In this document: piece after piece, positions 61,001 through 64,000 of the stretch
Layout of the letters: each line of letters opens with the position of its first letter
Position numbering within the stretch: position 1 is the first letter of the stretch
Source: Escherichia coli
GTDB lineage: Bacteria; Pseudomonadota; Gammaproteobacteria; Enterobacterales; Enterobacteriaceae
Assembly (NCBI RefSeq): GCF_030013595.1
Contig: NZ_CP122768.1
Length of the DNA: 64,000 nt
Strand: one strand, 5' to 3'
Position numbers: made by a program

Positions 61001-64000
61001 GTAGCCTGTGCGCTGGCGATTGCTGACAAGATGGATACTCTGGCGGGTATCTTCGGTATCGGCCAGCATCCGAAAGGCGACAAAGACCCGTTTGCGTTGC
61101 GTCGTGCCGCACTTGGCGTACTGCGTATTATCGTTGAGAAGAACCTCAACCTTGATCTGCAAACGCTGACCGAAGAAGCAGTGCGTCTGTATGGCGATAA
61201 GCTGACTAATGCCAACGTGGTTGATGATGTTATCGACTTTATGCTCGGTCGCTTCCGCGCCTGGTATCAGGACGAAGGTTACACCGTTGACACCATCCAG
61301 GCGGTACTGGCACGTCGTCCGACGCGTCCGGCTGATTTCGATGCCCGAATGAAAGCGGTATCGCACTTCCGTACCCTGGATGCAGCTGCAGCACTGGCGG
61401 CGGCGAACAAGCGTGTATCTAACATTCTGGCGAAATCTGACGAAGTGCTGAGCGACCGCGTGAATGCCTCTACTCTGAAAGAGCCGGAAGAAATTAAACT
61501 GGCGATGCAGGTTGTGGTGCTACGTGACAAGCTAGAGCCGTACTTTGCTGAAGGTCGTTACCAGGATGCGCTGGTCGAACTGGCTGAGCTGCGTGAACCG
61601 GTTGATGCCTTCTTCGATAAAGTGATGGTCATGGTTGATGACAAAGAATTGCGTATCAACCGTTTGACCATGCTGGAGAAACTGCGCGAACTGTTCCTGC
61701 GCGTTGCGGATATTTCGCTGTTACAGTAATAACGCCATTATTAAAAAGCCTGCCATCTGGCAGGCTTTTTTATCGCTAAATAATAGAGCAACCTTTAATA
61801 ATCTTCTGCTGAATAAAGATTGTCTCATATATTAATTTTATGAGATTTTTTTAGGATTATATCAAGGAGAAGAAACGAACTTATTAAGCTAGAATAGCTG
61901 CGGGTGCTTGAGACTGTTTGTCTCAGGTATTCACCGAAAGGCAGACAGAGAAAAGCCCCACCTGACTATAAATCAAAGTGAGGCTACCCTATGCCTGAAC
62001 ACCATAAGGTTAGCCTCTTACTCGTTGGAAATCAACACAGGAGGCTGGGAATGCCGCAGAAATATAGATTACTTTCTTTAATAGTGATTTGTTGCACGCT
62101 TTTATTTTTCACCTGGATGATAAGAGATTCACTGTGTGAATTGCATATTAAACAGGGGAGTTATGAGCTGGCGGCATTTTTAGCCTGCAATTTGAAAGAG
62201 TAAGAGTCTTCGGCGGGAAGTTATTCCCGTCTTTCTTACGGCGTTGCGCATTCTCATTGCACCCAAATTTATTTTTCACAAAAATAATAATAGATTTTAT
62301 TACGCGATCGATTATTTATTTCCTGAAAAACAAATAAAAAAATCCCCGCCAAATGGCAGGGATCTTAGATTCTGTGCTTTTAAGCAGAGATTACAGGCTG
62401 GTTACGTTACCAGCTGCCGGGCCTTTAGCGCCGCTTTCGATGGTGAAGGACACTTTCTGACCTTCGTCCAGAGATTTGTAACCATCGTTCTGGATAGCAG
62501 AGAAGTGTACGAACACGTCTTTAGAGCCATCGTCAGGAGTGATGAAGCCGAAGCCTTTGTCAGCGTTGAACCATTTTACGATACCAGTCATTTTACCGGA
62601 CATAGTGTATTACCTTTAATAATTAAGTGTGCCTTTCGGCGATATGGCGTGCTTTACAGATTTTGAAGCGTTAAAGGAATGTGCACTACGAGGGGTATCA
62701 ACGATAACTCTTGAAGGGACTTGCCTTACTACACTGCTTTAATGGTCTGTACGTCAAACCGTTGATGTGCATTAAGCCACGCATTGGCGGGTGATGCAAC
62801 AATTATTTTTCATATTTATGATTAATCGGTTGGAAAACGGTCCTGTCATCAGGACCGTAAACAGCAATAAAGTGGATAAAAGTCTATTCCATCAACTGCT
62901 TACTTAATGCCGGGTTGGCTTGAATCAAACGCATCAATTTTAGTTCGGCACTTGAAGGCTTCACGCGTCTGGATTCCCATTCCTTTACCATGGCGACTGA
63001 TACGCCCAAAACCCGGGCGAAATCATCGATTTTTAATCCTGTCCCTTTTCGTAACTGCTCAATTTCGGTACAGGATGTTGTTCTGTGCGTCAGGGTAATT
63101 TTCTGCGTTTCATCTTTAAAAACAATCTGTTCCAGGCTGCTCAACAGCTCATGCATTGGATCTTTATATTCCATTGAAAACTCCTCAAATCACACTGCGG
63201 GATCGTGAATTGCATCGAAGCTCATTAAGAATAGTCGGGAAAAGCAGACACAGCGGGGTGAAGTCAGGGCATGCTCTGGCTATGATTCGATTCAGCCAGT
63301 CATTTAGCGTGACTTATAGCCACCTAACGATCTGATAAATGCCGATATATCTCTTACCACTCCCGGTTTGTAAAGATTTCGAAAATCTAATGTTCTGCGA
63401 AGGCGTAAATCTCTGGCTACAAAAAAAGCAACGGCACCATCATTTTTTAACAATGAAACAACAAATTAACCTTGTTTCATTTTCTCCATGATTTTACCAG
63501 GAAGATTACGTAGAAAGGGTATCCTGCAAGCCTGTCCTGGACTATCCTTGTCACGTCAGACACGCGTGTGTCGTTGTGCGCTTTTTTTGGGTGAAAGGAG
63601 TAAGAAAATGGCGACAGGAAAGTCCTGCTCTCGCTGGTTTGCGCCTCTTGCGGCGTTATTAATGGTAGTTAGCCTGAGTGGGTGTTTTGATAAAGAAGGC
63701 GATCAGCGTAAAGCGTTTATCGACTTCCTGCAGAATACAGTGATGCGTAGCGGTGAACGTCTACCTACCCTGACTGCCGATCAGAAAAAACAATTTGGTC
63801 CTTTTGTCTCTGATTACGCGATTCTGTATGGTTATTCTCAGCAGGTGAATCAGGCGATGGATTCCGGTCTGCGCCCGGTCGTAGACAGCGTTAACGCAAT
63901 TCGCGTACCGCAGGATTACGTTACGCAAAGCGGCCCACTGCGTGAAATGAACGGTTCTCTGGGCGTACTGGCGCAACAGCTGCAAAATGCGAAGTTGCAG

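What the first reader, a model, noticed from the sequence alone, without database searches (positions are those of the whole stretch)
61780..62210. hokA type I toxin locus appears intact, without the IS150 that disrupts it in K-12
Seen in sequence: a 50-aa Hok-type ORF lies between the glyS terminator and cspA, with ~300 bp of uninterrupted leader upstream and no IS. Established knowledge (from memory): in K-12, IS150 (insJK) sits between glyS and hokA and the chromosomal hok loci are regarded as inactivated. Inference: hokA and its antisense sokA RNA may be functional here. The upstream in-frame ATG (61991) is probably not the mok frame, since mok normally overlaps hok out of frame.
Basis: partly seen in the sequence, partly recalled or inferred. 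Interest (0 to 1): 0.45.

Follow-up and report, generated by a model that had tools for sequence, protein, structure and literature searches.

The report
Intact hokA/sokA toxin–antitoxin locus
This is an ordinary, uninterrupted copy of the E. coli chromosomal hokA/mokA/sokA type I toxin-antitoxin locus, the state found in about half of sequenced E. coli and already described in 1999, so it is real but not new.

Summary
A 50-aa Hok-family ORF lies at 62051..62203 (+) between the glyS terminator and cspA. Its leader matches the Rfam hok/sok model, and no insertion sequence is present.

K-12 does carry IS150 here. It has also lost 39 bp (window 61980-62018), which held the mok ribosome-binding site, the mok start and the 5' part of sokA.

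The intact state is common: about 2,800 of 5,426 complete E. coli genomes (51-52%). RefSeq annotates it as hokA, and the IS-free hokA/sokA of E. coli C was characterised by Pedersen & Gerdes in 1999.

Every regulatory element of the plasmid R1 hok/sok model is present:
- a 5' tac element that pairs with a 3' fbi element (pair probability about 1);
- a ucb element that sequesters the mok SD;
- the Sok-target hairpin;
- a sequestered hok SD;
- a 3' protective hairpin;
- a 56-nt antisense sokA (62000→61945) homologous to annotated sokC.

It is the mokA start, and it is in frame with hok, as in K-12 mokC and in 10 of the 11 loci where a mok start could be found.

"Functional" remains unproven. Reviews report that the E. 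coli C locus gave no post-segregational killing.

Side observation: IS150 has hit the same spot in this leader repeatedly.

The parts
61748..61771 (+). glyS intrinsic terminator (GCCTGCC-ATCT-GGCAGGC followed by a T run), which bounds the locus upstream
   Evidence: Read from the sequence. glyS ORF ends at 61729.
61890..61895 (+). Putative hokA promoter -10 hexamer TAGAAT, 7 nt upstream of the predicted +1. There is no good -35, so the promoter is probably weak.
   Evidence: Aligns with TATGAT of the R1-type locus. The generic promoter scan did not call it. Inferred.
61902..62266 (+). Predicted full-length hokA (mok-hok) mRNA. The 5' end is set by homology. The 3' end is not determined, but lies at or after the fbi element.
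   Evidence: Rfam RF01794 model position 1 maps to 61902. Aligned to the R1-type 5' end. MFE -136.2 kcal/mol, z = -7.7 against shuffles.
61902..61913 (+). tac (translational activator) element, GGGUGCUUGAGA
   Evidence: Pairs with fbi in the full-length fold with pair probabilities 0.85-1.0. Pairs with ucb in 3'-truncated folds.
61953..61961 (+). ucb / anti-SD box, AAGCCCCAC
   Evidence: Pairs with the mok SD region 61978-61985 in the full-length fold and with tac in truncated folds.
61980..62017 (+). mok SD (GAGG, 61980-61983) and the Sok-target hairpin (mok SD/dcb stem), GAGGCUACCCUAUG...CAUAAGGUUAGCCUC
   Evidence: This helix is in the Rfam consensus structure. It forms only partly in the truncated folds: two short helices, 61983-86/62011-14 and 61990-93/62003-06, when the 3' end is at 62240, and not when it is at 62232-62236. 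This is the segment deleted in K-12.
61991..62203 (+). mokA-equivalent ORF, 70 aa, in frame with hokA and sharing its stop
   Evidence: ORF list. Frame analysis across loci. K-12 mokC and mokA annotation.
61945..62000 (-). Predicted sokA antisense RNA (~56 nt): a short single-stranded 5' end, a long hairpin, then UUUUCUCUGU
   Evidence: The ends were transferred from annotated K-12 sokC by alignment. The 3' part corresponds to K-12's annotated sokA pseudogene remnant. Fold -21.3 kcal/mol; z = -4.0 for the 81-nt region.
62007..62035 (-). Putative sokA promoter: -35 TTGATT (62035..62030), 17-nt spacer, -10 TAACCT (62012..62007)
   Evidence: Positionally homologous to TTGCGC/TATCCT of the R1-type locus and TTGACC of sokC. 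Below the threshold of the generic scan. Inferred.
62040..62044 (+). hokA Shine-Dalgarno GGAGG (GGGGG in many other alleles)
   Evidence: Sequestered in a 16-bp helix, 62042-62057 with 62171-62186, in all folds.
62051..62203 (+). hokA toxin ORF, 50 aa, with Cys14, Cys29 and Cys46 present. It differs from K-12 HokA at F15C, E36G and K47N.
   Evidence: Pfam HOK_GEF E=1.5e-22. Protein alignment. RefSeq annotation WP_001135727.1.
62212..62231 (+). GC-rich hairpin 9 nt after the stop codon: the predicted protective 3' stem-loop of the processed (truncated) mRNA
   Evidence: Terminator-like call. Present in all folds. The same hairpin sits at the same position in R1-type, prophage and other hok loci.
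62252..62264 (+). fbi (fold-back inhibitory) element, UCUCAUUGCACCC, complementary to the mRNA 5' end
   Evidence: Duplex -18.9 kcal/mol, reached by 0 of 200 shuffles. Compensatory tac/fbi differences are seen in other hok loci.
62180..62251 (-). ysaE-like 23-aa ORF, antisense to the hokA 3' end and 3' hairpin. It is a neighbour, not part of the TA mechanism.
   Evidence: Translation MRNAVRKTGITSRRRLLLFQIAG against K-12 YsaE MRNAVSKAGIISRRRLLLFQFAG. Annotated in K-12.

Best explanation
The region is an uninterrupted allele of the chromosomal hokA/mokA/sokA type I toxin-antitoxin locus of E. coli. It is organised like hok/sok of plasmid R1.

Proposed mechanism. Steps marked 'shown' rest on sequence or folding here. 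Steps marked 'inferred' are transferred from R1.
1. A weak promoter (-10 TAGAAT) makes a ~365-nt mRNA starting at 61902 (inferred).
2. In the full-length RNA the 5' tac (61902-13) pairs with the 3' fbi (62252-64). The ucb box (61953-61) covers the mok SD, so the RNA is translationally closed (shown in silico).
3. Slow 3' trimming back to the GC hairpin at 62212-31 removes fbi (inferred).
4. tac then pairs with ucb. The mok SD moves into the Sok-target hairpin (61980-62017), which Rfam's consensus structure contains but which these folds reproduce only in part (shown in silico).
5. Ribosomes starting at mokA (61991) open the 16-bp helix that hides the hok SD and AUG, allowing Hok synthesis (inferred).
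6. The constitutive ~56-nt antisense SokA (62000 to 61945, minus strand) pairs with the mok initiation region and triggers decay of the mRNA (inferred).

The locus is a common, previously described allele. Whether it kills or does anything for the cell is not established.
For: - Hok family membership: E=1.5e-22.
- Rfam hok/sok leader model: 124 bits, full length.
- RefSeq annotation as hokA: 100% identity.
- Colinearity with K-12 apart from IS150 and the 39-bp deletion.
- Element-by-element alignment with an R1-type locus and with annotated sokC.
- Full-length fold: z = -7.7, with tac-fbi in the MFE structure at pair probability 0.85-1.0.
- In truncated folds tac switches to ucb.
- tac-fbi duplex: -18.9 kcal/mol, reached by 0 of 200 shuffles.
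- The same hairpin-then-fbi layout occurs in R1-type, prophage and other hok loci. Paired differences: GAGA/UCUC here against GAGG/CCUC in prophage loci and CUGGAUC/GAUCCA(U)G in L013.
- The R1 model as described in PMC9841398.
- HokA peptides are toxic on overexpression (bioRxiv 10.1101/2025.08.07.668861).
- HokA has hard-coded Cys29 and Cys46.
Against: - No expression data. Both promoters are weak matches that the generic scan did not call.
- No convincing intrinsic terminator follows fbi, only an A/U-only hairpin and a T run, so the full-length 3' end is unknown.
- The IS-free E. coli C hokA locus reportedly neither stabilised plasmids nor responded to rifampicin. The R1-like switch may therefore not deliver killing from this locus.
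- This allele has private changes of unknown effect: F15C in the transmembrane helix, TG for CA just upstream of +1, and a G-C to G-U change in the 3' hairpin.
- Because mok is in frame, mok-initiated ribosomes would make a 70-aa extended Hok. Its fate is unknown.
Confidence: 0.9

Rival explanations
1. The locus is structurally complete but functionally dead or neutral, a decaying relic. The elements are retained by recent common descent, not selection, and neither killing nor any physiological role results.
For: - The literature summary says chromosomal hokA (E. coli C), hokB and hokC did not mediate post-segregational killing and were not rifampicin-activated.
- About half of E. coli genomes carry IS150 in the leader without evident harm.
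- Some IS-free alleles carry regulatory damage. L009 has -10 TGGAAT, an fbi mismatch and a frameshifted mok. L010 has lost the mok SD.
- The sokA -10 is weak (TAACCT).
Against: - Every element is intact in this allele.
- tac-fbi complementarity is far beyond chance.
- The hokA ORF stays open and annotated even in the IS-bearing genomes examined.
- HokA is toxic when expressed.
Confidence: 0.35
2. The ORF and its surroundings are a chance small ORF in an intergenic spacer, not a hok locus.
For: None beyond its small size.
Against: - Pfam E=1.5e-22.
- Rfam 124 bits.
- RefSeq hokA annotation at 100% identity.
- Conserved long-range RNA pairing.
Confidence: 0.01

Closest known systems
hokA/sokA of E. 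coli C (IS-free allele; Pedersen & Gerdes 1999, Mol Microbiol 32:1090, as cited in PMC3562002 and bioRxiv 10.1101/2025.08.07.668861)
   Same: Same chromosomal locus between glyS and cspA, IS-free, with hok, mok and sok and the tac and fbi elements.
   Different: I could not retrieve the E. coli C sequence, so allele-level identity was not tested. This window's allele has HokA F15C and a few private leader and 3' changes relative to other IS-free alleles.
hokA/mokA/sokA remnant of E. coli K-12 MG1655 (b4455, b4647, b4614)
   Same: The hokA ORF and everything downstream are 98.5% identical. The upstream leader is 96.9% identical.
   Different: In K-12, IS150 (1443 bp, insJK pointing away from hokA) plus one T replaces window 61980-62018. 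There is no target duplication. The mok SD and start, the first 9 mok codons and the sokA -10 and 5' part are lost, and hokA is cut off from its promoter, tac and ucb.
hok/mok/sok of plasmid R1 (the paradigm type I TA system)
   Same: Same order and spacing of -10, tac, ucb, GAGGC mok SD, mok ATG, AGCCUCUUAC motif, hok SD, hok ORF, GC hairpin after the stop, fbi, and sok promoter hexamers. The predicted full-length to truncated refolding is the same (PMC9841398).
   Different: Hok proteins are only 38% identical. mok is in frame with hok here and out of frame in R1. R1 has a clear terminator after fbi and this locus does not. R1 mediates post-segregational killing, whereas chromosomal hokA reportedly does not.
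hokC/mokC/sokC (gef) of E. coli K-12
   Same: A chromosomal paralogue with mok in frame (69 aa) and an annotated 59-nt Sok overlapping the first 9 nt of mok. It was used here to place the SokA ends.
   Different: 41% protein identity. The K-12 hokC fbi region is disrupted by IS186 downstream (PMC3562002).

Membership tests
[quoted passage not shown] | ~50-aa hydrophobic Hok/Gef-family toxin ORF | tested here: met
   Pfam PF01848 HOK_GEF, E=1.5e-22, 79.3 bits against a cut-off of 22, profile positions 1-42 of 42.
[quoted passage not shown] | Conserved cysteines (Cys14, Cys29, Cys46 in HokB numbering) needed for toxicity | tested here: met
   C14, C29 and C46 are present in the window's HokA. 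Their importance is taken from PMC12214031.
[quoted passage not shown] | Upstream overlapping mok reading frame with its own SD, ~57-60 nt before the hok start | tested here: met
   GAGG at 61980 and ATG at 61991, 60 nt upstream of hok and homologous to the R1 and mokC starts. In frame here.
[quoted passage not shown] | cis-encoded antisense Sok RNA covering the mok translation initiation region, with its own promoter and terminator | tested here: inconclusive
   The sequence is homologous to annotated sokC and to the R1-type sok region, and a terminator hairpin plus U run is present. The promoter hexamers are weak and were not called by the scan. Transcription cannot be tested here.
[quoted passage not shown] | Long-range tac-fbi pairing that closes the full-length mRNA | tested here: met
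   11 bp between 61902-13 and 62252-64 in the MFE structure. Pair probabilities 0.85-1.0. Reached by 0 of 200 shuffles. Compensatory differences in other loci.
[quoted passage not shown] | ucb/mok-SD pairing in the full-length RNA that switches to tac/ucb after 3' truncation | tested here: met
   Seen in folds of 61902-62275 compared with 61902-62232, -62236 and -62240. In silico only.
[quoted passage not shown] | Match to the curated hok/sok leader covariance model | tested here: met
   RF01794, 124 bits against a gathering score of 59, model positions 1-157 of 157. The match is on the hok-sense strand.
[quoted passage not shown] | Toxicity of Hok, its neutralisation by Sok, and post-segregational killing | not testable with these tools
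   Literature only. HokA is toxic on overexpression. The IS-free E. coli C hokA locus showed no PSK and no rifampicin activation.
IS150-disrupted hokA (K-12 state) | IS150 between glyS and hokA | tested here: not met
   The window is colinear across both known IS150 junctions (61978/79 and 61979-62019), with no IS sequence.

The most novel reading that the evidence does not exclude
The spot immediately 5' of the mok SD (window 61976-61983) may be a sequence- or structure-specific target for IS150 that has been hit independently several times in E. coli history.

Four configurations were seen:
- the K-12 type, with IS150 in the opposite orientation plus a 39-bp deletion;
- the L003 type, a simple insertion with an AAG duplication on leader haplotype 1;
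- the same site and orientation on leader haplotype 2 (L094);
- an O145 allele carrying only the 7-nt IS150 terminus TGTACTG in place of the mok SD, a possible excision scar.

Together with published IS150 hits in the hokC, hokE and mokB leaders and in sokE, this would make hok leaders a preferred IS150 landing site. The intact allele in this window would then be the 'unhit' ancestral state, kept in only about half of the species.
Probability: 0.5. Interest if true: 0.3.

Novelty: already known. Interest (0 to 1): 0.12.

Why it matters
It matters little for discovery. The locus is annotated routinely, occurs in about half of E. coli genomes, and its IS-free form was cloned and studied in 1999.

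Its practical value is as a reminder that K-12 is the derived state: IS150 plus a 39-bp deletion that removes the mok start and part of sokA. Natural isolates like this one are therefore the right background for asking whether chromosomal hokA/sokA does anything, for example in persistence, phage defence or stress response.

The recurrent IS150 insertions at one spot in the leader are a modest lead on IS150 target choice or on selection against active hok loci.

Tried and rejected
1. The original Pedersen & Gerdes 1999 paper is not held. I relied on later open-access papers that summarise it.

2. I did not compare with the E. coli C allele directly, because the search tool cannot target one genome and the coordinates are unknown.

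3. The generic promoter scan found neither the hokA nor the sokA promoter at its 9-of-12 threshold. Both promoter assignments therefore rest only on positional homology with R1 and sokC.

4. The viral-contig scan for hok relatives returned 80 loci, almost all of one prophage Hok type with a nearly invariant tac. A formal covariation test was not worthwhile. I used per-locus tac/fbi duplex energies with shuffles and a cross-locus matrix instead. R1-type and L009 were not significant against mononucleotide shuffles (35 and 27 of 200).

5. The left-junction count for the L003-type insertion (1133) is inflated, because the sum of the three states exceeded the number of genomes. Cross-matching between the two similar IS150 ends probably explains this. 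The right-junction count (1047) is cleaner but still an upper bound.

6. I suspected that a 92.5%-identity junction hit was IS150 in another hok locus. It turned out to be the same hokA site on a second leader haplotype.

7. Sub-threshold Rfam hits at the glyS and cspA terminators (STnc370, leader peptides, rnk) are generic terminator look-alikes and were dismissed.
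Full report
**Observation.** Reading the window and listing ORFs gives the following layout.
- glyS ends at 61729, followed by a terminator hairpin at 61748-61771.
- A 50-aa ORF lies at 62051..62203 (+).
- cspA lies at 62391..62603 (-).
- The small ORF is a Hok/Gef family member: Pfam PF01848, E=1.5e-22.
- The 152 nt before and including its ATG (61902..62053) match the Rfam hok/sok leader model RF01794 over its full length, at 124 bits against a gathering score of 59. The match is on the hok-sense strand, as it is for an R1-type plasmid locus.
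- The 701 bp from 61700 to 62400 are 100% identical to a pig-faeces E. coli genome in RefSeq, where PGAP annotates glyS, hokA, a small hypothetical ORF and cspA in this order.
- The rest of the window is the usual lld-mtl-sel-yia-xyl-glyQS neighbourhood and is 99.9% identical to that genome.

**Comparison with K-12.** MG1655 annotates hokA, a mokA pseudogene that ends at the hokA stop, IS150 (insJK), a 35-nt sokA pseudogene and then glyS. Aligning the window to K-12 shows that K-12 matches the window up to 61979 and again from 62019. Between these points K-12 has one T plus the 1443-bp IS150.

K-12 has therefore lost window 61980-62018 (39 bp), and there is no 3-bp target duplication. The lost segment holds the mok SD, the mok ATG, nine mok codons and the -10 and 5' part of sokA.

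**How common the intact state is.** The counts below are from 5,426 complete E. coli genomes.

| State | Genomes |
|---|---|
| Uninterrupted, 701-bp stretch | 2,831 |
| Uninterrupted, 141 bp spanning both IS sites | 2,789 |
| K-12-type junctions | 1,644 (left), 1,663 (right) |
| Second configuration (L003 type) | at most 1,047-1,133 |

The second configuration is IS150 in the opposite orientation, a clean insertion with an AAG duplication at 61976-78. Its left-junction count is inflated by cross-matching of the similar IS ends.

Roughly 51% of genomes are intact, 30% are K-12-type and 17-19% are the other type. The window's state is the commonest one.

**What the literature says.**
- Papers that cite Pedersen & Gerdes 1999 state that hokA/sokA 'was found in E. 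coli C' and is regulated 'in the usual manner' (PMC3562002).
- They state that K-12's hokA, hokC and hokE are inactivated by insertion elements (PMC12214031).
- The same preprint and PMC12214031 report that HokA is toxic on overexpression and has both Cys29 and Cys46 hard-coded. The window's HokA keeps both.

The IS-free hokA locus is therefore already known and has been studied experimentally. I could not read the 1999 paper itself.

**Anatomy and likely mechanism.** Alignment with an R1-type plasmid locus and with K-12 hokC/sokC lets each R1 element be placed.
- -10 TAGAAT at 61890-95, and the mRNA 5' end at 61902.
- tac at 61902-13 and ucb at 61953-61.
- mok SD GAGG at 61980 and mok ATG at 61991.
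- The conserved AGCCUCUUAC motif at 62012-21.
- hok SD GGAGG at 62040 and hok ATG at 62051.
- A GC hairpin at 62212-31, 9 nt after the stop.
- fbi at 62252-64.

Folding 61902-62275 gives -136.2 kcal/mol (z = -7.7). In that structure tac pairs with fbi (6+5 bp, probabilities 0.85-1.0). ucb pairs with the mok SD region. A 16-bp helix (62042-57 with 62171-86) buries the hok SD and AUG. A 9-bp helix joins 62015-23 to the stop-codon region 62198-206.

When the 3' end is cut back to 62232-62240, tac pairs with ucb instead. The Sok-target hairpin (61980-62017) that Rfam's consensus structure contains appears only in part, as two short helices with the 3' end at 62240, and not with the end at 62232 or 62236.

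This reproduces the core switch of the published R1 model: a closed full-length RNA, 3' trimming, a tac/ucb stem, then mok translation and Sok binding (PMC9841398).

The layout 'stop, GC hairpin, about 20 nt, fbi' recurs in R1-type, prophage and other hok loci, and paired tac/fbi differences occur between them:

| Locus | tac segment | fbi segment |
|---|---|---|
| This window | GAGA | UCUC |
| Prophage loci | GAGG | CCUC |
| L013 | CUGGAUC | GAUCCA(U)G |

On the minus strand, transferring the ends of annotated sokC places SokA at 62000 to 61945. Its -35 is TTGATT, followed by a 17-nt spacer and a -10 TAACCT. It folds as a short free 5' end plus a long hairpin followed by UUUUCUCUGU.

The steps involving transcription, 3' processing, translational coupling and RNase III decay are inferred from R1 and are not shown here.

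Weak points:
- Neither promoter passes a generic scan.
- No proper terminator follows fbi.

**The mok question.** It is the mok-equivalent start. It follows the conserved GAGGC SD at the same position as in R1. K-12 annotates mokC as an in-frame 69-aa extension of hokC, and annotates mokA as ending at the hokA stop.

Twelve loci were checked: the window, six other hokA alleles, four prophage-contig hok loci (IMG/VR), one R1-type plasmid variant and hokC. The start is in frame with hok in 10 of them and gives 69-71-aa products. One (L010) lacked a recognisable mok SD/start, and one was out of frame.

R1 itself is out of frame, with starts at positions 116 and 174. One hokA allele (L009) is out of frame because of a 1-nt deletion. 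This fits the published view that mok translation matters, not the Mok peptide.

**Allele-specific features.** Compared with six other IS-free alleles, the window differs in the following ways.

| Position | Window | Other alleles |
|---|---|---|
| HokA residue 15 (62094) | Cys (G), shared with one other allele | Phe (T) |
| hok SD (62042) | GGAGG, shared with one other allele | GGGGG |
| 61899-900, just before +1 | TG | CA |
| 3' hairpin (62230) | G-U pair | G-C pair |

None of these breaks an element. By contrast some IS-free alleles are damaged.
- L009 has -10 TGGAAT, an fbi mismatch (duplex -13.8 kcal/mol) and a frameshifted mok.
- L010 (O145) has TGTACTG, the IS150 terminus, in place of the mok SD.

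**IS150 recurrence (side finding).** IS150 occupies essentially one spot, 61976-61983, in several configurations.
- It occurs in two orientations there.
- The clean insertion is found on two different leader haplotypes (L003 and L094, with 4 differences between the IS copies).
- L010 looks like an excision scar.

Published work reports repeated IS150 insertions next to hokC, hokE and mokB in evolution experiments (PMC5419217). It also reports sokE::IS150 in more than 400 natural isolates (PMC11551753). A preference of IS150 for hok leaders is therefore already on record. The hokA data add detail but were not mapped on a phylogeny here.

**Verdict.** The locus is an already known, commonly occurring allele of a well-understood family. 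Interest is low.

Noticed in passing
L010 (E. coli O145 RM8988-C1), equivalent to window 61981-61983: This IS-free allele has TGTACTG, the terminal 7 nt of IS150, in place of AGG of the mok SD (net +4 bp). It looks like an imprecise IS150 excision scar, and it removes the GAGGC mok ribosome-binding site.
   Followed up: partly
window 61976-61983; loci L001, L003, L094: IS150 sits at this one spot in about half of E. coli genomes, in two orientations. The K-12 type has a 39-bp deletion and no target duplication. The other type has an AAG duplication and occurs on two different leader haplotypes, which suggests repeated independent hits.
   Followed up: partly
window 61986-61998 (mok start region): Two sharply different haplotypes exist among E. 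coli: GCTACCCTATGCCTGAAC (this window) and GCCCCTCTATG(C/T)ATAGAC (O157, O145 and others). Six substitutions are clustered in 13 bp of the Sok-target hairpin, and the rest of the leader is nearly invariant.
   Followed up: no
L009 (strain AZ 190), hokA locus: This IS-free allele shows regulatory decay. The hokA -10 is TGGAAT, the fbi has a G-to-A change that weakens tac-fbi pairing, and a 1-nt deletion before the hok ATG makes mok a 29-aa out-of-frame ORF.
   Followed up: partly
window 62180..62251 (-): A 23-aa ORF homologous to K-12 YsaE (19 of 23 residues identical) lies antisense to the last codons of hokA and to the hokA 3' hairpin. It is annotated as hypothetical in most genomes.
   Followed up: partly
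window 61821-61852: An A/T-rich inverted repeat (TCTCATA, 9 nt, TATGAGA) followed by seven T lies between the glyS terminator and the hokA promoter. It may be a weak second terminator that insulates hokA from glyS read-through.
   Followed up: no
window about 41.7-43.1 kb and 43110-43152: By comparison with the near-identical genome NZ_CM149870.1, an IS1397 (IS3 family) copy lies between ysaA and avtA. An Rfam ES036/CssrF sRNA match just above threshold (38.9 against 37.6 bits) lies beside it.
   Followed up: no
window about 8068-8790: The repeat region of the large YadA-like adhesin gene is where the window differs most from its closest genome. BLAST returns several overlapping matches at 79-93% identity there.
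   Followed up: no
L004 (strain 47538), between hokA and cspA (equivalent to window ~62283): This strain carries an insertion of about 400 bp, with an ORF annotated as a YidD-like membrane protein insertion factor, just downstream of the hokA fbi element.
   Followed up: no
L005 (strain GZ2408C): Here the IS150 at the hokA leader is truncated by an IS1, and hokA itself is deleted. This is a further decay state of the locus.
   Followed up: no
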